Below are positions 4,335 through 55,796 of a stretch of 64,000 nucleotides of DNA, in pieces. The translations under genes were made by a program, and so were the position numbers. The notes under the pieces are model-generated. The model was not told where the DNA came from and ran no database searches. It worked only from the letters and a program-made list of their open reading frames with translations. The stretch's first letter is position 1; each line of letters begins with the position of its first letter. The DNA comes from Eledone cirrhosa (lineage: Eukaryota). The DNA is taken from positions 343,232,001-343,296,000 of the forward strand of contig OZ024741.1 of NCBI GenBank assembly GCA_964016885.1, read 5' to 3'.

Positions 4335-4790
4335 TCATAGTTCATTTAGTTTGGGTTTGAATTTATCAATAACATTCTTTTCTTTAATTTTTCTCTTGAT
4401 TTCACTTGGGCTGTGTAATTTGTAGAATGGAAATATTATAAATATTCTCTGACCACATGTTGCTAGATGGTTACTCAGGGGTATCTGACGGACATTTGGG
4501 TCTCTGATTTGCTGTCGGTGTACCTGTGCACGTTCCGATAGTGCATTTCCAGTTTGACCGACATATAGTTCTTCAGAATTCGGGCATTTAATGGAGTAAA
4601 TTAGATTTCTGCTTTTGCAGTTCATATTTGAATTTGGGAATATTTTTCCAGTTTTTGTTTTGATATATTGACCGGCGTGTTTGGATTGGCATGTGCCACA
4701 TCGACTATCATTGCATTTAGATACAGTGAATGATTGGTCTTTGTTGTTAAGGTCAAACTTTGATTTTGTTAGCCGAAAAATTTGAAGCAA
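4335..4790 (-). pseudogene. PLE GIY-YIG endonuclease domain
   Basis: CGTC...NCKSRNLIYSIKCPNSEELYVGQTG...HRQQI...KFKPKLN. Confidence 0.9.
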
Positions 4791-33182: not shown

Positions 33183-36100
33183 GTTGCATTTATCTTGCTT
33201 TATGTTCATACGAGTTATCACCAAGTCACAACCAGTGACCTCAAGAGACAACAAGGTCCGCCATGTTCAAGAAAGAACATACATACACACACATGCAACT
33301 TTAGGTGTTTAGACTTGTGATGTACTTATATTGACAGAATCTTCCTTAGTATATGGGCAGTTCCCATTAGTACTATCTTTTGTATTTCTCCTATACGCGG
33401 GTTTCCTGGGATTTGCGATAAGTAATCATTAGACCCCTTAGGTATCATTCCTAGAGCGCCTACAACCACTGGTATTGTTTTAGTTCTCAATTTCCACATT
33501 TTTCCAATTTCTATCTCCAGGTCCTTATACTTGCTCAATTTTTCAAATGTTTTTATAGATACATTCTTGTCTATTGGAACGGACATATCAATTAGCAGGC
33601 ATACCCTCTTTTTAAAGTCCTTCAGTATTATATCACATCTATTTGCATCTATTTTTCGGTCTGTTTGGATGCTAAAGTTCCACAAGATTAAGATGTGATC
33701 TTTTTCAAGTATGGGAGGTGGTTGATGCTCCCACCAATTATTTTGATGGGGCAGTTCAAAATGCTTACACATTATCCAATGTATGTATTGTGCAGCTCTG
33801 TCATGCCTGTTTCGGTATTCGGTTGGAGCTATAGGACTGCACATTGAAATTATATGGTCAATGGTCTCTGGTTGTTTTTTAAATACACGGCATAATGGGC
33901 TGCATCCATTTTTTTTATTATGTTGGCTTGGTATTTTTTTGTTGGCAGACACTGATCTTGTGCTGATATAATCAGTCCTTCAGTCTCCGATTTCAGTCCA
34001 GAGGATGCCAACCACTGATGGGTTAAAGTTTTGTCAACATCAGGATTGTTAGCTCGTTCTGGGTATTTTCCATACAGAGGCTTTTCTTGCCATTTCTTAG
34101 CCAGTTTCTGTAGCAGTTCTTTCTTTGCAGTTACTTTTACATGCTTTGCTTGTTCTGTGTTTTCCATTTGAGCAGTAAATGGGACTTCTGAAATTTGTAG
34201 TCCATTACTGTATCTTTGTGCATCTTTTGTAATGGAGTATGATCTTTTGATGCTTTCGTGTTTCAAAACGAGTTTGATCATCCAATCATGTGATTCCCTT
34301 AGATATGTAGATAATCCAATTGTTGCAGTTTTCAACGCAATGTCTAACTGGATTAACTCACGTCCCCCTTCTTTCCTAGGGAGATATATTCTATCTGTAT
34401 CTGCCTTAGGGTGAAGCATTCTTTGCATGGTTAAGAATTTTCGAATTTTTGTATCGAGCCTACGGATCTCTGTGCTTGACCAGTTGATGACATTGTAACT
34501 GTAGGTTACTACTGGTATGGCAAGCGTGTTTATGGCATCGATCCTATTCTGTGCATTCAATTCCGTTCTTAAGATTGCTCTTACTCTGCGGTAACATTCC
34601 TTCCTTATCCTTTCCCTAATTGTCGAGTGCTTGATTCCGTCTCCTTCACAAACACCTAGATATTTGTAAGTTTCCTCTTGATCAAGTTCTCTTATCACAT
34701 TCCCCCGATCAAGATTAATGTCTGAACTTTTCAGCAGCTTTCCTCTGGTGAACGTTGCTTTGGCGCATTTATCTAGTCCAAACTCCATTTTAATGTCATC
34801 ACTGAACTGCTCCACAGTGGATAATAGCCCTTGCTATTGTTCATCATTTTTTGCGAATAGTTTCATGTAATCCACGTAGAACAAGTGATTAATGGTTTTG
34901 TCATAGACTTTATATCCATGTTTTGTTTCATTGAGCATTTTACTTAATGGTATAAGTGCGATGCAGAATAAAAGCGGTGATAAAGAGTCACCCTGAAAAA
35001 TTCCACAATTAATATTAACTTCTCCAGCTTCCAGTGATTTTGTTTCACTATTCAAAATGAGTGTCGTTTTCCATGTCTTCATACTGAATGACAAAAACCT
35101 CCTGACAACGGGAGATATTTTGAAAATCTCTAAACATTTTTCAATCCAACTGTGTGGCAAACTATCGAATGCTTTTTTATAATCTATCCAAGTAGTTGAT
35201 AGATTTTTGTGTATATGATGACAATCTTCCAGTATCATTTTGTTAACCAAAAGCTGATCCTTACAGCCATATGAGCCTCGTTTACACCCTTTCTGCTCAT
35301 TGGGAAATAGGTCATTTGTTATCAGGTGGTGATATGTATATTCAGTTAGGACTGATGTTAACATTTTATACATTGTGGTCAAGCAAGCTATCGGTCTGTA
35401 ATTTTTGGGATTGTTTGTCTCATCATTCTTCGGAAGCAGGAATGTAATGCCGTTAACTAGTCATGATGGTATCTTTTCTGGCTCCTTCAGTATTTCATTG
35501 TAAAGTTGGGCTAACAGCTCATGAGACTCTGTGAAGGCATTTATCCAAAAGTTTTGTATTTTGTCTTTTCCTGGGGATTTCCATTTGCTGGTTTTTCTTA
35601 GAGACAAGCGCAACTGTTCAACTGTTATATTTTCCCATATTTGTTCCTCAAGGTGAGCTGTATCTTTCATTTGTCTGTCTATCCATGGGGCATGTATGTT
35701 ATGAACTTTTTCTTCGGCCCAGATCTTTTCCCAGAATTCTTGCACTTCCTCCTTGGGTGGTATTGATTTAGCAGTTATTGTTGACTTACCAATTTTTCTG
35801 TAGAAGTTTCTTTGGTTGCTTTTGAACATATTATTGTCCTTATAGAATCTAGATCGTTTTTCAAAGCGCCTTATACGAGCAGCTTTGGCCGACACTTTTT
35901 GCTTGATTATTTCTATCAGCATGTCTATGTCACTTGTTGATTTTATACTGTACTTTCTTTTCAATTTTCTAAGTTTAGTTTGTTTAACATGTTCACCTAC
36001 TTTATAGTATGTCAGATCGGAGAAGGTTTATTTGGCGATTGATGTTCTCTTGCCAAGTAGATTTCTTGTGGGAATTCCTTTGTTTTTTCATCTTCACTCC

Positions 36101-37135
36101 ACATAAGTGAGTGGTGACTTTAGCCGATGTATAATAGATATGATTTAAATCAGTAATGTTTAGTTTGTTTGTGATGATAATGTTTTTGAGAGTTATGTTA
36201 GTCTTGTGTATTATCTTTTGGTTCTGTTTGGAGTTCTGGATCTTAGGGAGGGTGTCTCGTTGCCCCATGTCAGATTCTTTCATTTTCATCCATTCGATCA
36301 TAATTTCATCCTTCAAGTTGGCAAGTTCATTCTCATTCATTTCTTTATCATTTACGATCTCATTATTTTCATTTGGAGTTTCAGCTTGAGCATGCACTCC
36401 CTCCACTTTTTCGATCCTTTCTTTAATTTGTTCTGTTGCCAGTGATTCCGCCCCAACCCTGGGATTCGAAGTGTTACAATTTACCTCGTTTTCACTGACA
36501 CATGTTTCATTTTCCATTCGCTGACTTTGTGCTAATAGCTTGATCTGATCAATTTCTATATCAGTTAGTAACTTTTTTCTGACAATATTTCTTCGTATAT
36601 TGGCTAGTTTGTTACTGTCAATATAGCCTCTGTTTTCGGGATGTTTCTTTTTCCAGTTGATATATGTCTGTTCTGTATTCGATGTATTTGATGGGTAATA
36701 CATGGCAGTGTAGAAAGCCTCAAGGACTTCTTTATTATCTTCCCTTGACCATTTTTCTCTCTTTTTCTTTGGATTTCTTGGTGGTGAGCATGGAGGGCCA
36801 ACAGTAGGAGTATTCCGGTTATGGGAGGTCTCCAGCTCCGAAGTGATGGGAAGGTTTGAACTATTAGCTGATTTTTCGACCCCAGTCTGGTTCCTCTCTG
36901 AGGGACGCGGCCCTTTTTGACCCGGGTGACGGCCGATCCGGTATGAGATTTTATCATTAGACATTTACTTTATTTTGTCGCGTTTTATCCTTATCCGCCA
37001 AGGGGTAATCATTTCGTGTTACCACTTCTAGAACGAGTGTCAACCAAAACTAGAGGGGTCGTTCTCCCCTAGAGACACGGCTATTCCCCGCCGGCCGCCA
37101 TCCCGGTATTTCTTGGTCACGGGGTTTTCTTTTTG
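33183..37135 (-). mobile_element. R4/Dong-clade RLE non-LTR retrotransposon, near full length, disrupted (copy 1)
   Basis: ORFs 36002-36964, 35461-35964, 34834-35382, 33850-34815, 33326-33952: [43 protein letters not shown]; 3' end abuts (TTA)n. Confidence 0.88.
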
Positions 37136-37375: not shown

Positions 37376-40300
37376 TCTTTGAGTCTCAGTCATTGATGTT
37401 AGTTAACTGGAAAGTTTGTTGAAATTAATATCAAGCCACTACCTGCAGCCTCAGATATTCAGGACGTATCGGAGGGTTCCTGCTGTTCTCAGCAAGCATG
37501 CATCTTGAAGCGTTCCAAAAAGCGTGAAGGGGCCAATTTTCTTAAACCATCCATGGAAACTTTTGGAGATAGTCCCTAGTGCGCCTATGACAATCGGGAT
37601 CACTTTGACTTCATGGCAGTTCCAAATCCTTTTTACCTCCCACTTTAAGTCCTGGTATCGGTTAATTTTCTCCCTCTCCTTCTCTTGCACTCTCGTATCG
37701 AATGGGCAGGCCACATCCACAATCAGGCACGATCTTTTTTCTTTGTCCACAACCACCAGGTCAGGTCTATTGTGTTCCAGTTTCTTGTCCGTCTGTATCC
37801 TAAAATCCCACAGCACCTTCACCTGATCCTTTTCTATCACCGCCTTTGGCTTATGCTCATACCACTTCTCAGAATGTGGTAAATTGTTTACTTTGCATAG
37901 GTGACAGTGGATCACCCTGTCCATCACATCATGTCTCCAGCCCTTATAGTGAGTCTGGGCTAGGTGTTTACACTCGGATACAATGTGAGTCACAGTCTCC
38001 TCTCTCTCTCCACAGATCCTGCACAGTGGGCTAGCCTCCTCCTTGTAAATATGGTGTTTCAACCACTTCGTTTTGAGGGCCTGCTCCTGCGAAACCATTA
38101 ACATTCCTTCTGTAGCCTTTTTAAGGTCTCCTCTTTTCAACCAGTTCCATGTCTGTGGATCTCTAAATTCAGTTTTCTCAAAGAAGGTACTATGAAGGGA
38201 TTTTTCCTGAAGGCTGCTCTTTCTCCTTGATGTTATTTCCTCCTTGGACATCCCCTGGCCTATTGTCCCCTACTTCAGTACAGTTCTGAGCATTGGCTCC
38301 TTACTATCAGTCACGTATTTGTGTAGGTTGTTTTTCTCCATCTGAACACAGTCCTCTATGCTGATAAGACCTCTTCCACCCTCAGATCTCCTTCAGTAGA
38401 GTCTATCGACATCACTCCTCTTGTGGAACATGTTGTAGATAGTCAATAGCTTCCTAGTCTTCCTATCCATTTCTTTCTGTTCAGCAACATTCCATCTCAG
38501 AATTCCCACACTGTACCTAATAATAGACACAGCTCGGGAATTTACTGCACTTATGGCATTCCTACTATTCAGATGTGACTTTAATACGCTCCTTCCTCTC
38601 CGAATGTATTCAGTTCTTATCAATTCCTTCATTTTTTTGTTCTTGATGCCAGAACGCCCAAATACTTGTATCCTTCTTCAGAGTCAATTTCCTTTATCAT
38701 CTCACCCGTTGGTACCTGGATTCCGTTACTTCTGCTCAACCTACCCCTCTTCATCACAATAACTCCACACTTACTAATACCAAATTGCATACATATATCA
38801 TTGGTGAAAATACGGACAGTGTCAACAAGCACATCCAACTCCTTCTCACTCTTCTCGAAGAGCTTAAGATCGTCCATGAAGAGGAGGTGATTGATGGAAA
38901 GCCCTCCCTTTCCCAACCTGTATCCTGCTCTCACTTTTCGCAGTACACTGGTCAGGGGCATCAGGGCAAGGACAAACAACAGAGGGGACAGACTATCTCC
39001 CTGGAAGATACCTCTCTTGATCTTCACGCTTCCCAAGGATTCTCCAGTTGATGTTAACTCTGTTTGTCAGGACTTCATACTTTTGCCCAACAACTGTCTG
39101 ATGTTATCTGCCACCTTGAAGATCTCCAGGCTTTTGGTGATCCAAGAATGAGGCACCATGTCAAATGCCTTTTTGTAGTCTATCCATCCCATGGCAAGAC
39201 CAGTGTGTCTCCTCCTGCAATTCTTCATTACCATCTTATCAATAATCAACTGGTCCTTTGTACCACGTGACTTCTTTCGGCATCCTTTCTGTTCGTCCGG
39301 TAACAAGTTGTTTGTGTGGAGGTGATGGTAGATTTCCTCAGACATAATGCTTGTTAACAGTTTCCACATTACGGACAGACATGTGATAGGTCTATAGTTG
39401 GTAACATCATTACCCTTGATTCGGTCTTTCATTATCAGTCTTTCATTATCAGAACTGTGGTACCTTTTGTCAACCACTCTGGTACCTCACCTGACATCAA
39501 GCAGTCATTGAACATAGTCATTGAACATGGTTGTCAGTTTCGGGTGGAGGGATGTTATATTTTTAATCCAATACCCCTGCACACCATCTGGGCCTGGTGA
39601 TTTCCAGTTGACTAGTTTTTTGGCCTGCCCCTTAAGAGTTTCAACTGTGATACTCAAATCAGTTTGTTGGTGTGTCTGTTCACTAATCTCCTTCTGTACT
39701 GTCTCAATCCACACTGCCTGGTCATTATGTTTAACATCCTGCTCCCATATTCCTCTCCAGAATGTTTTAGTTTGTTCCGCCTCAGGGATCAAGTCGTTGC
39801 CTCTTTCTTTCCCTTCAAGCTGTCCAAACAGCATCTTCTGGTTGTTGTCGAACATGCGGTTCTGTCTATACTGGCTGACTCTGCTCTCGTATCGCCTGAT
39901 TTTTGCACCCTTTGCTACAATGCATTGCTTCAGTTCCTCTATGATAATATTTAGCTTTTTCCTCCTAATTTTGTACTTTATTTCCAGTCTATTTTTAGTG
40001 TCTATGTTTTTTAGTGTCCCATTCAGTAGGGACTCAAGCTTTCCAATGTCATTTCTCATTTCCCTGATTTGCCCACTCAGTCGTTTCTTCCACCAAGGCT
40101 CTGCTCTTTCTTGTCTGTTGTTTGCTCTCGCTTTTATACCAAGTAGATTCCTCACCGTATTTGCTGTTGCTTTGAGGATATTGTTGCACTGGTGAAGGCT
40201 CCTCGCCTCAAGTTATGGGATGACTTTGTTTACCTTAGCTGTTTATTCTTTTAACTTTTTCCTGTCTACAAATCTTAGGTTCATAGGTCTCCCACTATCA

Positions 40301-40981
40301 TTGTTCAATTCATCTACCACTAAGTTTAGGATATCAACCAAATCTTGTCCTAGCCCATCAGCATTCATATCGTCAGTGGCCGTATCTCTGTTCCAGGTAT
40401 TATTTATCTCAGCATTCAGATCATTGTCTGCTTCGGGTGGTTCCTCCGTTCTCTAGACCTCTTCACCTTCATTTCACACTGGCTCGTTTACCTGGCATAC
40501 TCCACTCTCCATTTCCAACCTAAACTCTCTGCTCAGTTCCTCCAGTTCCAGCTCGCTTATCCACCCATTAGTTCTTATTACCCGAGCCTGCCCGGCCAAT
40601 TTTTGTTTATCTAATTTAAATAGACCAATCTCGTTCCAGATGTTATGCATCCGTTTCCTATAGCCTTTCTCCTTGGGGTCACTCTTCAGGTAACATTGCA
40701 TAATAGTTCTATTCAATTCTTTCGTCCAGTTGGTTCTGGTCCTTTTCCTTCTTCTTCTTCCTCCGACACCAGCAGTATCTGGTTGACAGCCAGGTTCCTG
40801 CTGCTGAGCCAGGGAGCACCTGTTGGGTGAGAGTCTGTCACATGACATTCTAGTCTCCATTTCACCGTTATTCGAACTGTTTAGGTTCGACATTTAAACA
40901 CTCTTATCGAGGATTGGCGAATGTATGGTTACATAACCACCGGTGAATTCATCGTCTCCGGTGGTTCCGTCACTCCACGTG

Positions 40982-40983
<2 letters not shown>
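37376..40983 (-). mobile_element. R4/Dong-clade RLE non-LTR retrotransposon, full length, disrupted (family 2)
   Basis: KSPGPDG, GIFQGDSLSP, FMDDLKL, CRICGEREETVTHIVSEC, RHD, NRPDL; (TTA)n on both sides. Confidence 0.9.
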
Positions 40984-41045
<62 letters not shown>

Positions 41046-41046
<1 letters not shown>

Positions 41047-42392
41047 CTTGAATCTCAGTCATTGATGTTAGTTAACTGGAAAGTCCGTTGGAATGAATAT
41101 CAAGCCACTACCTGCAGCCTCAGATATTCAGGACGTATCGGAGGGTTCTTGCTGTTCTCAGCAAGCATGCCTTTTGAAGCGTTCCAAAAAGCGTGAAGGG
41201 GTCGATTTTCTTTAACCATCCCTGGAAACTTTTTGAGATAGTCCTCAGTGCGCCTATGACAATCGGAATCACTTTGACTTCATGGCAGTTCCAAATCCTT
41301 TTCACCTCCCACTTTAAGTCCTGGTATCGGTTAATTTTCTCCCTCTCCTTCTCTTGCACTCTCGTGTCGAATGGGCAGGCCACATCCACAATCAGGCACG
41401 ATCTTTTTTCTTTGTCCACAACCACCAGGTCAGGTCTATTGTGTTCCAGCTTCTTGTCCGTCTGTATCCTAAAATCCTACAGCACCTTCACCTGATCGTT
41501 CTCCATCACTGCCTCTGGCTTATGCTCATACCATTTCTCAGAATGTGGTAAATTATTTACTTTGTATAGGTGCCAGTGGATCACCCTGTCCATCACATCA
41601 TGTCTCCAGCCCTTATAGTGAGTCTGGGCTAGGTGTTTACACTCGGATACAATGTGAGCCACAGTCTCTTCTCTCTCTCCACAGATCCTGCACAGTGGGC
41701 TAGCCTCCTCCTTGTAAATATGGTGTTTCAACCACTTCGTTTTGAGGGCCTGCTCCTGCGCAGCCATCAACATTCCTTCTGTAGCCTATTTAAGGTCTCC
41801 TCTTCTCAACCAGTTCCATGTCTGTGGATCTCTAAATTCAGTTTTCTCAAAGAAGGTACTATGAAGGGATTTTTCCTGAAGGCTGCTCTTTCTCCTTGAT
41901 GTTATTTCCTCCTTGGACATCCCCTGGCCTATTGTCCCCTCCTTCAGTACAGTTCTGAGCATTGGCTCCTTACTATCAGTCACGTATTTGTGTAGGTTGT
42001 TTTTCTCCATCTGAACACAGTCCTCTATGCTGATAAGACCTCTTCCACCCTCAGATCTCCTTAGGTAGAGTCTCTCGACATCACTCCTCTTGTGGAACAT
42101 GTTGTAGATAGTCAATAGCTTCCTAGTCTTCCTATCCATTTCTTTTTGTTCAGCAACATTCCATCTCAGAATTCCCGCACTGTACCTAATAATAGACACA
42201 GCTCGGGAATTTACTGCGCTTATGGCATTTCTGCTGTTCAGATGTGACTTCAATACGCTCCTTATTCTCCAAATGTATTCAGTTCTTAACAATTCCTTCA
42301 TTTTTTTGTTCTTTATGCCATCAGCCTCCAGAACGCCCAAATACTTGTATCCTTCCTCAGAGTCAATTTCCGTTATCATCTCACCTGTTGGT
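41046..42392 (-). mobile_element. 5'-truncated second copy of R4/Dong family 2
   Basis: Highly similar to 37376-38715; 3' end in (TTA)n. Confidence 0.9.
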
Positions 42393-42396
42393 ATAT

Positions 42397-42690
42397 ATAA
42401 ATAAAATAAAATAACAGGAGGCTGGACTGATTCCAATACCTGATGATATCACCGGATTTATATGGAACCCGGTCATTGAAATGATCATAGTATAATAAAC
42501 CTTTCAAGGATTTACACCAGTCCAGCCTCCTGTTATTTTATTTTATTTATAATTAACTCCGTATTCGCACCACCAACTACACAAACAAAGATAGGTGAAC
42601 TGCACTGCGTTGAGTACTCTTCACAATATTACACCAGGATTGACCATACGAAATGACCAGTTCTATCCTGTGGTGTACCAACAAACCTAA
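42397..42690 (+). mobile_element. HHR element with short 5' inversion; inverted relative at 43905-44155
   Basis: 42397-42430 inverts 42518-42550; body homologous to rc of 43905-44155. Confidence 0.75.
42436..42493 (+). ncRNA. Type-I hammerhead
   Basis: atac CTGATGA tatcaccgg...ccggtcatt GAAA tgatca TA gtat. Confidence 0.8.
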
Positions 42691-42692
42691 AG

Positions 42693-42738
<46 letters not shown>

Positions 42739-42806
42739 ATGAAGAGAGAAGAAACATTTAGATATAATTAGTAATAAAATGTATCATACCTAAACTGCTC
42801 CTAAAT

Positions 42807-42896
42807 TCCTCGACTACGTAGTTTCGTGGCATAAACAAAAACAATATATCATAAAGACATAGAGTCCTTGCGAGGTCTGCCGACTTATCAAGAGGA
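42807..42896 (-). ncRNA. Type-I hammerhead, U3-A8 variant (family A)
   Basis: rc: tcctc TTGATAA gtcggca...tgccac GAAA ctacgtag TC gagga. Confidence 0.8.
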
Positions 42897-43401
42897 TACC
42901 TCATTTTACTAGTCTCAAGAACGCGTCTACACGACGTGAGAAAGAATCCCAAAAGACGGAGGGGGAGATAGTCACGCGATATAACGGTCGAGAAACAGAG
43001 CTAAGCCTCTTATAACCCCGAAGAAAATACCACGGAGGCGGAGGGGGTATTTATATCGAGGCCGTAGAAGGGGTGGTGAAGAAGGCGAGAAGTATGAGTA
43101 ATGGAAGCTTTCCAGCTGTCCCCACACTTCAAAGATTGCTCGACCAGAGGGAGTTATTAACAATATATTTAGAAACACACAGATACATGCGGACACACAC
43201 ATATATACATGAATGCATCCGCACCCAACTGTGAGTTAAGGGTGCCAACTTCACCGATGTTGCTCAATGAATGACTGGGACAGACCAATTCAGTTGAACT
43301 AGACTGAACCAGTATCAGAGTTAAAAATACATTATGAAGAGAGAAGAAACATTTAGATATAATTAGTAATAAAATGTATCATACCTAAACTGCTCCTAAA
43401 T

Positions 43402-43491
43402 TCCTCGACTACGTAGTTTCGTGGCATAAACAAAAACAATATATCATAAAGACATAGAGTCCTTGCGAGGTCTGCCGACTTATCAAGAGGA
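43402..43491 (-). ncRNA. Type-I hammerhead, U3-A8 variant (family A, second unit)
   Basis: Same motif 595 bp away. Confidence 0.8.
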
Positions 43492-43828
43492 TACCTCATT
43501 TTACTAGTCTCAAGAACGCGTCTACACGACGTGAGAAAGAATCCCAAAAGGCGGAGGGGGAGATAGTCACGCGATATAACGGTCGAGAAACAGAGCTAAG
43601 CCTCTTATAACCCCGAAGAAAATACCACGGAGGCGGAGGGGTATTTATATCTCTTCATAATGTATTTTTAACTCTGATACTGGTTCAGTCTAGTTCAATT
43701 CAACTGAATTGGTCTGTCCCAGTCATTCATTGAGCAACATCGGTGAAGTTGGCACCCTTAACTCACAGTTGGGTGCGGATGCATTCATGTATATATGTGT
43801 GTCCCCGCATGTATCTGTGTGTTTCTAA

Positions 43829-43904
<76 letters not shown>

Positions 43905-44094
43905 TTTGAAGGTTCACCACTGGATAGAGCTGGTCATTCCGTATGGTCAATCTTGATGTAATAATATGGAGAGTACTCAACGTAAAGCAGCTCAACCGTC
44001 TTCGTTTGTGTAGTTGGTGGTCCGAGTACGGAGTTAATTATTATAAAAAAATAACAGGAGGCTGAACTTGTGTAAATCCTTGAAAGGTTTATTC

Positions 44095-44151
44095 TACTAT
44101 GATCATTTCAATGACCGGGTTCCGTATGAATCCGGTGATATCATCAGGTAT
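44095..44151 (-). ncRNA. Type-I hammerhead
   Basis: rc: tac CTGATGA tatcaccggattcatacggaacccggtcatt GAAA tgatca TA gta. Confidence 0.78.
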
Positions 44152-44260
44152 TAGAAATATAATAAATGAATGTAACAGATAAAATCCATGGGGCTGAAAA
44201 TCATAGACCCGAGGACGACCGACCATCTAGTATCTTCCAGTTTAGCCGGTCGCCCTCAAG

Positions 44261-44297
<37 letters not shown>

Positions 44298-44393
44298 CGT
44301 TAAGTATTTCCGTGGAAAAGGTTAAGGAAAGAAGAGTGTTCTATGTATACTGAAGAACTATTTAATTATGTAATAAACAAGACAATATAATTA

Positions 44394-44464
44394 TTCCATT
44401 ACCCAAGGTTTCACGAATTCAGACGATTCTAACAGAGGCGTCTGAATCCGTTCATCAGATAGAA
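44394..44464 (-). ncRNA. Type-I hammerhead with long stem II
   Basis: rc: ttctat CTGATGA acggattcagacg...cgtctgaattcgt GAAA ccttggg TA atggaa. Confidence 0.82.
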
Positions 44465-44494
44465 AAATATATATACATACATACATATATATAT

Positions 44495-44965
44495 ATCAAA
44501 AATTAAATTAAGGGTTGTCATGTCTGAGAGACATGCAGCATATCCACTTCAGAATAAGCTCAAAGATTCCAATGAATAGATCCGAGCATTTTATATCAAC
44601 TAGAAATAGATTGACATATATATATATATATATAAAATAAACATATGAAACAATCACAGGGAATAATTTGTAAAGTGTGTAAACACACATAGCTAGGTAC
44701 GTAACTAATTAAATTTTAACTAGAACTTCAAATATAGATACCTTTTAAAATGAAGTTCTAGTTAAACTTTAATTAGTTACCTACCTAGCTATGTGTGTTT
44801 ACACACTTTACAAATTATTCCCTGTGATTGTTTCATATGTTTATTTTATATATATATGTGTTAATCTATTTCTAGTTGATCTATTCATTGGAATCTTTGA
44901 GCTTATTCTGCAGTGGATATGGCGCATGTCGCTCAGACATGACAACCCTTAATTTAATTTTTGAT
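44495..44965. repeat. ~230 bp-arm inverted repeat between (TA)n tracts; third partial copy 45260-45403
   Basis: Arms 44495-44730 and 44751-44965, several mismatches and an indel. Confidence 0.85.
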
Positions 44966-45398
44966 ATATATACATCCCCTTAATTGTAGAGCTAACTCAG
45001 TTGAATGGACTCGGCTGCTATTTCTAGCTGTCGACAATCCTATTCACGCTGCTGTGATGACGCTGTGCGATGTTTGTATTTAAAAAAAAATGCAACGCGT
45101 GGTACGAATCATTCACAGATTTGCATTTGTTGTGTAAACACAGATGGTTGGATCTTCTCCTATGGTGACCATCCGAGGTTTGACTTCTGTGATTTACCGA
45201 TTAATTGGTGAAATATATTTTTTATTAAAAGAAATACATACAAAGGAGATTAATCAATTTAAAAGGTATCTATATTTGAAGTTCTAGTTAAACTTTAATT
45301 AGTTACCTACCTAGCTATGTGTGCTTACACACTTTACAAATTATTACCTGTGATTGTTTCATATGTTTATTTTATATATATATATGTCAATCTATTTC

Positions 45399-45467
<69 letters not shown>

Positions 45468-45473
<6 letters not shown>

Positions 45474-46119
45474 GAAACACACAGATACATGCGGACACAC
45501 ACATATACATGAATGCATCCGCACCCAACCGTGAGTTAAGGGTGCCAACTTCACCGATGTTGCTCAATGAATGACTGGGACAGACCAATCCGGTTGAACT
45601 AGACTGAACCAGTATCAGAGTTAAAAATACATTATGAAGAGAGAAGAAACATTTAGATATAATTAGTAATAAAATGTATCATACCCAAACTGCTCCTAGA
45701 TTCCTCGACTACGTACTTTCGTGGCATAAACAAAAACAATACATCATAAAGATATAGAGTCCTTGCGAGGTCTGCCGACTTATCAAGAGGATACCTCATT
45801 TTACTAGTCTCAAGAACGCGTCTACACGACGTGAGAAAGAATCCCAAAAGGCGGAGGGGGAGATAGTCACGCGATATAACGGTCGAGAAACAGAGCTAAG
45901 CCTCTTATAACCCCGAAAAAATACCACGGAGGCGGAGGGGGTATTTATATCGAAGCCGTAGAAGAGGTGGTGAAGGAGGAGAGAAGTATGAGTAATGGAA
46001 GCTTTCCAGCAGTCCCCACACTTCAAAGATTGCTCGACCAGAGGGAGTTATTAACAATATATTTAGAAACACACAGATACATGCGGACACACACATATAC
46101 ATGAATGCATCCGCACCCA
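45468..46119 (-). mobile_element. Family A circularly permuted copy (~592 bp + ~57 bp redundancy), HHR at 45702-45791
   Basis: Starts and ends in ttagaaacacacagatacatgcggac..., a different register from 42736. Confidence 0.88.
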
Positions 46120-46142
46120 ATATATATATATATATATATATA

Positions 46143-53233: not shown

Positions 53234-55571
<2,338 letters not shown>

Positions 55572-55796
55572 TATATATATATATATATATATAAAAGTAC
55601 AGCATATTTGAAGTTCGAGTAGCAGCTAAGCCAACGAATGCCTTCAGCAGTGCAGCCAAGCACTCGACAAGGTATATACCTCCAAGTAATAACATACAGT
55701 TTAAAGGGCTTTGCAAATTGAAAATAGCGACCGCTAATTCAGCTGCGGGATCTGTAGCAACGAAAGGACTGACTAGTGAGAAAATAATACACACAC

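What the first reader, a model, noticed from the sequence alone, without database searches (positions are those of the whole stretch)
42736..46119. Circularly permuted ~595 bp hammerhead unit: candidate large retrozyme/circRNA family
Seen: a non-coding ~595 bp unit occurs as ~1.5 tandem monomers (42736-43650) and again as ~1.1 monomer (45468-46119) starting at a different point of the same circle, with one type-I HHR per monomer. The element 3' ends fall at internal AT-rich spots (..cttcataat, ..tttctaaatatat) that merge with flanking (TA)n. Known: metazoan non-LTR retrozymes are tandem type-I HHR repeats, typically a few hundred nt, that yield circRNAs. Inference: a self-cleaving circRNA reverse-transcribed more than once around, primed by TA microhomology, probably using PLE machinery.
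Basis: partly seen in the sequence, partly recalled or inferred. Interest (0 to 1): 0.9.

Follow-up and report, generated by a model that had tools for sequence, protein, structure and literature searches.

The report
Ribozyme circle copied by Penelope machinery
This is a non-coding 595-base repeat carrying a predicted self-cutting ribozyme, spread as thousands of young insertions whose repeated units match within each insertion and whose ends fall at two fixed paired sites, a pattern that likely records a Penelope-type reverse transcriptase running round a circular RNA, a long-proposed but untested step.

Summary
Confirmed with corrections. The 595-bp unit is real, non-coding, with one type I hammerhead per unit on the minus strand (U3:A8 core, long stem II). 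The genome holds at least 6,777 exact hammerhead matches and 2,475 (TA)n-joined ends; three subfamilies (76-100% identical) keep the ribozyme. Ends are not freely permuted: 219 of 222 outer ends lie at two sites 169 nt apart, and 99 of 104 inverted two-armed insertions pair one site with the other, the Penelope 'tail' pattern. Units within an insertion share even rare alleles (4,683 concordant pairs, 24 discordant, 954 expected by chance), arms cross the cleavage site without indels (0 of 403) or extra stops, and recurrent sense A-to-G changes occupy all passes (69 of 72; held-out 52 of 53). Best reading: a non-LTR retrozyme whose circular RNA is likely reverse-transcribed round and round from both target strands by a PLE enzyme. 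The class and size are known; this genomic evidence was not found in my literature searches. No RNA data; partner PLE unidentified.

The parts
42736..43650 (-). Element 1, arm A: 1.54 units (unit 1-595, then 1-321); outer end at priming site A next to (TA)20
   Evidence: L001
42812..43406 (-). One complete cleavage-to-cleavage unit, 595 nt: the predicted circular RNA (MFE -180.8 kcal/mol; 60 shuffles mean -137; antisense -130)
42807..42896 (-). Type I hammerhead 1: stem I 5 bp, core UUGAUAA (U3:A8) 42891-42885, 59-nt stem II with bulge, GAAA, short palindromic stem III, predicted cut 42812/42811
   Evidence: invariant across three subfamilies
43402..43491 (-). Type I hammerhead 2, identical, 595 nt upstream
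43650..43835 (+).
45465..46120 (-). Element 2: single arm from site B, 1.1 units, 5'-truncated, (TA)n on both sides
45702..45791 (-). Hammerhead 3 with a stem III mismatch (change at 45716), probably impaired; only one hammerhead in element 2, so it cannot release a full unit
   Evidence: sequence; not detected by the descriptor
43162..43330 (-). 169-nt stretch between priming sites A and B (two predicted hairpins with pair-keeping changes across subfamilies): the equivalent of the PLE 'tail'
42695..42734 (.). (TA)20 target tract at the A end of element 1
43829..43902 (.). (TA)37 target tract at the B end of element 1

Best explanation
This is a non-coding, hammerhead-bearing 595-bp retroelement (a non-LTR retrozyme) whose transcript is predicted to self-cleave into one-unit RNAs that are likely closed into circles and likely copied in trans by a Penelope-like (PLE) reverse transcriptase-endonuclease. 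Inferred cycle: a locus with two hammerheads is transcribed; cleavage releases one 595-nt unit; it is ligated into a structured circle; a PLE protein, probably a dimer, nicks both strands of a (TA)n tract and primes one cDNA at site A and one at site B on the same RNA; each enzyme runs on round the circle (mean about 680 nt, up to 2.9 kb) and stops at random; the two cDNAs are joined head to head through short microhomology, giving an inverted A+B insertion, or one arm alone is fixed. Some adenosines of the circle are probably edited (A to I) before copying and are written into every pass. Shown: anatomy, copy number, end pairing, homogeneity, ribozyme conservation. Inferred: cleavage, ligation, the circle, the PLE enzyme, editing.
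For: Copy number: 5,141, 6,777 and 2,475 exact pattern matches, reversed-pattern controls 0. Ends: 219 of 222 outer ends at A (unit 1-6; 123) or B (420-431; 96 plus one at 431 counted here), 207 of 222 next to (TA)4+. Pairing: 74 of 78 inverted insertions are A+B (2 A+A, 0 B+B, 2 other), including 32 of 33 when picked by the A end; held-out 25 of 26. An RT+GIY-YIG-type PLE family of this genome shows the same two-end inverted pattern with a shorter tail, matching the published optional tail on one end (PMC8557442) and two RT start sites with both strands cut and extended (PMC11167929). Arms independent: in 26 of 73 A+B insertions neither arm contains the other. One template unit: 4,683 concordant vs 24 discordant pairs at 33 polymorphic sites, 954 expected if drawn at random (85 insertions); 34 rare alleles fill all tandem passes in 26 insertions and 27 fill both arms in 16; 34 distinct all-pass haplotypes among 42 multi-pass insertions; variants within an insertion are singletons (103 vs 3 shared subsets; held-out 53 vs 0 outside L291) and recur no more than chance (28 vs 21 expected, range 14-29). 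No break at the cut site: 0 indels in 298+105 passes, 2 stops vs 2.2 expected; arm lengths fit an exponential (92 arms, KS p 0.14). Ribozyme kept: 0 of 42 hammerhead positions differ against 88 differences in 595 between subfamilies 1 and 2 (p about 0.001), same in subfamily 3 at 76% identity. Sense strand folds far better than shuffles (z -6.7). Sense A-to-G: 22 vs 14 U-to-C among inherited alleles (p 0.004), 16 vs 31 among later mutations; 71 of 147 parsimony steps; at eight recurrent sites G fills all passes in 69 of 72 cases, held-out 52 of 53; 6 of 8 have a 3' G.
Against: No RNA evidence: cleavage, ligation and the circle are not observed. Stem III is short and stem II long and bulged; published PLE-type hammerheads cleave poorly in vitro (PMC4209133), 8 of 9 Xenopus retrozyme dimers did not cleave, and hammerhead cleavage was not needed for PLE insertion in vitro. 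No sequence homology to 40 PLE loci, so the partner is unnamed; the only direct link is one in-sense PLE-unit fusion with 5-nt microhomology (L192), which a later deletion could also make. The A-to-G excess did not appear in small samples of subfamilies 2 and 3 nor among 14 new private all-pass alleles (1 A-to-G); the eight sites were picked after seeing the data. Local expansion after insertion does occur (L291). Samples come mostly from contig C1 and were picked by exact patterns.
Confidence: 0.74

Rival explanations
1. Same PLE mobilisation, but the template is the linear cleaved unit: the enzyme jumps from its 5' end back to the 3' end of the same molecule, which mimics a circle.
For: Gives the same within-insertion homogeneity; a ribozyme-free tandem element with PLE-type ends was noted in another genome (e1-7881736, not checked); L192 may be a template switch.
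Against: 0 indels in 403 passes over the cut site and no extra stops there (2 vs 2.2); jumps would have to be seamless and stay on one molecule (24 discordant pairs of 4,707).
Confidence: 0.12
2. Uncleaved linear multimer transcripts are the template (the ribozyme is kept for another purpose), with homogeneity coming from very young sources, DNA circles excised from tandem copies, or RNA-RNA replication.
For: PLE insertion in vitro used unprocessed RNA (PMC11167929); the hammerhead may be weak as a monomer.
Against: A new mutation arises in one unit, yet rare alleles fill all tandem passes (34 cases) and 34 of 42 multi-pass insertions have their own all-pass haplotype, so a one-unit bottleneck with re-amplification is needed nearly every generation; no shared unit-specific variants beyond chance. 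A DNA circle is not excluded by sequence alone.
Confidence: 0.08
3. Solo PLE terminal repeats insert as short pieces and expand locally by unequal crossover, as proposed for vertebrate retrozymes (bioRxiv 10.64898/2026.07.22.740005).
For: One locus (L291) did expand after insertion.
Against: That locus shows the expected mark (9 variants shared by subsets of units) while the other 38 held-out loci show 0 against 53 singletons; homogeneity is the same across inverted arms (0.39%) as overall (0.35%); no copy with an intact ORF among 205 loci; the unit has persisted as a circle-sized repeat over 24% divergence.
Confidence: 0.03
4. For the A-to-G signal only: not editing, but ordinary DNA mutations in many source loci that are favoured because A-U to G-U keeps or improves the fold.
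For: A-U/G-U exchanges are common in the conserved helices; no excess in subfamilies 2 and 3; part of the recurrence is plain inheritance within clades.
Against: Class and strand bias (A-to-G 71 steps vs U-to-C 26), 3' G context in 6 of 8 (p 0.001); site 330 changes 11 times between two linked sites that change once or twice, which argues against recombination.
Confidence: 0.35

Closest known systems
Metazoan non-LTR retrozymes (Cervera and de la Pena 2020, PMC7229834; Li et al. bioRxiv 10.64898/2026.07.22.740005)
   Same: Non-coding tandem units with one type I hammerhead each, under 50% GC, no LTR, strongly self-paired predicted circle, co-occurs with PLEs; length within the reported 51-972 bp.
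   Different: PLE-type hammerhead (U3:A8, bulged and extended stem II); dispersed short multimers with inverted arms and two fixed paired ends in (TA)n rather than long satellite arrays; the 2020 review says no motif pointed to the mobilising element (PMC7761336), whereas here the ends carry the PLE mark.
Endonuclease-bearing Penelope-like elements: pLTR, tail, inverted 5'-truncated arm (PMC8557442, PMC3846280, PMC11167929)
   Same: Two end sites, tail on one end only, head-to-head inverted arms, microhomology joins, AT-rich or (TA)n targets, hammerhead upstream of the ends.
   Different: No ORF; tail 169 nt against the usual 30-40; both arms run through several identical units; inverted arms are independent, not self-primed fold-backs as proposed in PMC3846280.
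U3-A8 minimal hammerheads of Schistosoma Cercyon PLEs (PMC4209133)
   Same: Same core covariation; bulged stem II and small palindromic stem III resemble other PLE hammerheads in that paper.
   Different: There mostly single motifs; here in a tandem unit with a 59-nt stem II.
Plant LTR retrozymes (described in PMC7229834 and the 2026 preprint)
   Same: Similar circle size; hammerhead-made circles proposed as templates.
   Different: Type III hammerheads, LTR/PBS/PPT, Gypsy machinery, 4-bp duplications; none seen here.

Membership tests
non-LTR retrozyme | Tandem units each with a type I hammerhead | tested here: met
   two intact hammerheads 595 nt apart in element 1
non-LTR retrozyme | No coding capacity, GC under 50%, no LTR organisation | tested here: met
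   longest ATG frame 76 aa, GC 42%; PBS/PPT not searched separately
non-LTR retrozyme | Stable self-paired unit RNA | tested here: met
   z -6.7; 8 of 117 pairs with changes on both sides, 98.4% of cells paired, but the structure was derived from the same alignment
non-LTR retrozyme | Self-cleavage of the transcript | not testable with these tools
   only conservation of the motif
non-LTR retrozyme | Expressed as circular RNA | not testable with these tools
   no RNA run listed; indirect genomic signs only
non-LTR retrozyme | Long target-site duplications when present | tested here: inconclusive
   ends lie in (TA)n (207 of 222), where duplications cannot be read
autonomous PLE | ORF with RT and GIY-YIG between pLTRs | tested here: not met
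   no intact ORF linked in 205 loci; one truncated fusion
PLE-mobilised element | Two end sites with tail on one end; inverted 5'-truncated arm | tested here: met
   99 of 104 inverted insertions A+B; same pattern in a coding PLE family
PLE-mobilised element | Sequence homology to the pLTR of an autonomous PLE | tested here: inconclusive
   none in 40 PLE loci out of 10,596 GIY-YIG candidates
L1-type twin priming | First cDNA ends near the second priming site | tested here: not met
   4 of 73 within 20 nt, about chance; 56 of 73 B arms run through site A

The most novel reading that the evidence does not exclude
The genome itself records a PLE enzyme priming both strands of a (TA)n target at two sites on one circular, A-to-I edited ribozyme RNA and copying it round repeatedly in both directions: direct sequence evidence for rolling-circle retrotransposition in an animal, an explanation of PLE inverted-plus-tail insertions as two-ended priming, and site-specific RNA edits written back into germline DNA.
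Probability: 0.42. Interest if true: 0.86.

Novelty: new variant of a known kind. Interest (0 to 1): 0.68.

Why it matters
How animal retrozymes move has been a model only: circles copied into multimers by an unknown enzyme, or local satellite expansion. This young family, with thousands of resolvable copies, separates the two by sequence and names the enzyme class from the ends. It also tests an open point of PLE biology (origin of inverted arms and the one-sided tail) and gives a small defined substrate (595-nt circle, two start sites, (TA)n target) for an in vitro assay of a processive, strand-displacing reverse transcriptase. If the A-to-G signal is editing, RNA edits are being fixed in DNA at set sites.

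Tried and rejected
Rfam: nothing at gathering score, no hammerhead at E up to 5. RNA runs: no RNA holder listed; laying four contig runs showed presence of the unit and of ends next to (TA)n only. Partner PLE: BLAST and nhmmer against 40 GIY-YIG loci found no homology; an 18-nt match in L159 proved to be low-complexity chance; the head-to-head PLE contact in L252 pairs two B-type ends and is not counted. Classical twin priming and fold-back rejected. Stops at the cleavage site: no excess. 5' ends of single arms at internal TA tracts: no enrichment, 8 of 66 vs 11%. Depletion of inherited variants in the hammerhead within subfamily 1: 1 vs 5.9 expected, suggestive only. A TATA-like box next to GC boxes in the unit is changed in a large subfamily, so no promoter claim. 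A-to-G excess not seen in subfamilies 2 and 3. Rows dropped before counts: L070b (local duplicate), L111b (older subfamily), overlapping loci, indel-prone columns 112-127, 300-323, 418-432, 460-475, and 8 nt at arm ends. Literature: searches found no paper testing within-insertion homogeneity, A/B pairing or editing in retrozymes; subscription papers are not covered, and the supplements of PMC7229834 (unreadable) and of the 2026 preprint (closed) may bear on this.

Full report
What is in the window. A 595-bp unit lies at 42736-43330 and repeats to 43651; a second insertion at 45465-46120 starts at unit position 427 and passes its own start. Self-comparison shows a further inverted piece at 43650-43835, so element 1 has two arms, head to head, with (TA)20 and (TA)37 outside. 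My type I descriptor finds hammerheads on the minus strand at 42891 and 43486: 5-bp stem I, core UUGAUAA (U3:A8), 59-nt bulged stem II, GAAA, short palindromic stem III, cut after GUC at 42812. The copy in element 2 has a stem III mismatch. Rfam does not detect the motif. U3-A8 cores and bulged stem II are reported in PLE hammerheads (PMC4209133, passages). The unit is non-coding (76 aa at most).

The family. In the 3.0-Gb animal genome (taxon not determined) exact patterns give 5,141 matches near site B, 6,777 at the hammerhead and 2,475 A ends joined to (TA)6, with 0 for reversed controls; a few thousand insertions is my inference. Best copies are 98-100% identical. Two older subfamilies, about 87% and 76% identical, 580-592 nt long, keep the same ends and the same hammerhead: 88 differences between subfamilies 1 and 2, none in 42 ribozyme positions. 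The sense unit folds as a circle at -180.8 kcal/mol against -137 for 60 shuffles and -130 for the antisense; 8 of 117 predicted pairs change on both sides across 15 units, a count that leans on a structure taken from the same alignment.

Ends. I mapped 144 insertions (55 loci picked by a B-region pattern, 60 by the A end, 28 by full-unit similarity) and 43 more from 39 held-out loci picked by one allele. Of 222 outer ends, 219 lie at A (unit 1-6) or B (420-431), 169 nt apart; 207 adjoin (TA)4 or more; none uses the longest internal TA tract. Inverted insertions pair A with B in 74 of 78 and 25 of 26; there is no B+B. Arm joints mostly overlap by 0-11 nt. Arms are independent in length, in 26 of 73 neither contains the other, and B arms run through site A in 56 of 73, so neither fold-back nor L1-type twin priming fits. 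A coding GIY-YIG PLE family in the fetched loci shows the same two-end inverted pattern with a tail of about 45-65 nt; the genome has 10,596 GIY-YIG candidates and RT+GIY-YIG frames. Published PLE work describes a 30-40-bp tail often on one end only (PMC8557442 and PMC3846280, passages) and an anole PLE that cuts and extends both strands from two internal RNA sites (PMC11167929, parts 1-2 of 4). The ends therefore mark PLE machinery. No homology to 40 PLE loci was found; one locus joins a truncated PLE frame in sense to the unit through 5 shared letters (L192).

One template unit per insertion. At 33 polymorphic sites, passes within an insertion agree in 4,683 pairs and differ in 24, against 954 expected at random (85 insertions). 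Rare alleles fill all tandem passes in 34 cases and both arms in 27; one 4.6-kb insertion carries three such substitutions in 7-8 passes of both arms (L094). Among 42 multi-pass insertions there are 34 distinct all-pass haplotypes. Differences inside insertions are singletons (103 vs 3 subsets) and recur at chance level (28 vs 21 expected). The one locus that expanded after insertion, L291, shows 9 subset-shared variants; the other 38 held-out loci show none against 53 singletons. Arms cross the cut site 403 times without an indel and do not stop there more than expected; unbiased arm lengths fit an exponential. A linear cleaved unit would limit A arms to 76 nt and B arms to 245; 115 of 122 and 75 of 96 exceed this. 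A circle read repeatedly explains all of it; a seamless jump on the same linear molecule, or a DNA circle, is not excluded.

An RNA-level mark. Inherited alleles favour sense A-to-G (22 vs 14 U-to-C although U is 1.65 times commoner; p 0.004), later mutations do not (16 vs 31). Polarised with subfamily 2, A-to-G makes 21 of 63 sites and 71 of 147 parsimony steps among 112 insertions. Eight sites recur on several backgrounds, 6 with a 3' G and none with a 5' G, the preference I recall for ADAR; the G fills all passes in 69 of 72 cases and 52 of 53 held-out cases. Genome-wide the G at site 330 is in 816 of 4,255 pattern matches. Against: no excess in 24 and 28 insertions of subfamilies 2 and 3, 1 A-to-G among 14 new private alleles, sites chosen after the fact, and selection on fold is an alternative. 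I rate editing at about 0.6.

Comparison. Non-LTR retrozymes are known as hammerhead tandem repeats expressed as circles, with PLE mobilisation and multimer cDNA proposed (PMC7229834, parts 2-4 of 6; PMC7761336, passages). A 2026 preprint (parts 1-3 of 5) links them to pLTRs by homology, reports 51-972-bp units, suggests local amplification and states that the mechanism is open. So class and size are known. What differs is the PLE-type U3:A8 ribozyme, the long paired tail, and the copy-level record of rolling-circle copying. It works like a retrozyme and meets every membership feature I could test; cleavage and circular RNA were not testable (no RNA holder listed). Earlier scan notes: none on this genome or sequence; two related notes from other genomes, not checked.

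Verdict: new variant of a known kind, interest 0.68, mainly because it makes the mobilisation question directly testable.

Noticed in passing
window 53351-55573: Another non-coding two-armed inverted insertion (arms about 1 kb, 99% alike) with a U3:A8 hammerhead (53452 -, 55391 +) and a roughly 90-nt tail on one end only; its end is common genome-wide; no tandem units, so probably a linear template.
   Followed up: partly
window 42396-42695 and 43903-44156: Two copies (88% alike) of a further short family face element 1 from both sides across the (TA)n tracts; each has a CTGATGA...GAAA minimal-hammerhead-like motif; the left copy interrupts a LINE-like RT frame (41477-42448).
   Followed up: partly
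window 44300-44975 and 45254-45410: Family with a CUGAUGA type I hammerhead at 44458 (-) and nested inverted pieces; the whole 42.4-46.2 kb stretch is a cluster of hammerhead-bearing insertions in (TA)n.
   Followed up: no
window 10112 (+), 62880 (+), 25867 (-): Further type I hammerhead-like descriptor hits; similar motifs occur near PLE frames in L146, L149, L157.
   Followed up: no
window 4344-4604 (-): GIY-YIG domain hit (PF01541, above cut-off), a PLE fragment.
   Followed up: no
window 33326-36964 and 37451-42448 (-): Two broken non-LTR retrotransposons with RT and C-terminal nuclease-like frames; 38001-38714 is repeated at 41670-42393.
   Followed up: no
L192:1609-3745: Truncated PLE frame fused in sense to the 5' end of a unit through 5 shared letters: template switch or later deletion.
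   Followed up: partly
L291 (G000:C1:166379000-166390000): One insertion duplicated three times with 3, 7 and at least 1.4 units inside kilobase TA-rich tracts: local expansion, next to an assembly gap.
   Followed up: yes
L146, L150, L152, L153: A second U3:A8 hammerhead type (core TTGAAAA, 13-nt stem II) recurs near PLE frames; U3:A8 cores seem common in this genome.
   Followed up: no
runs X4 and X5: Runs labelled as two other organisms hold the unit at 95-99% identity; related species, contamination or transfer not resolved.
   Followed up: no
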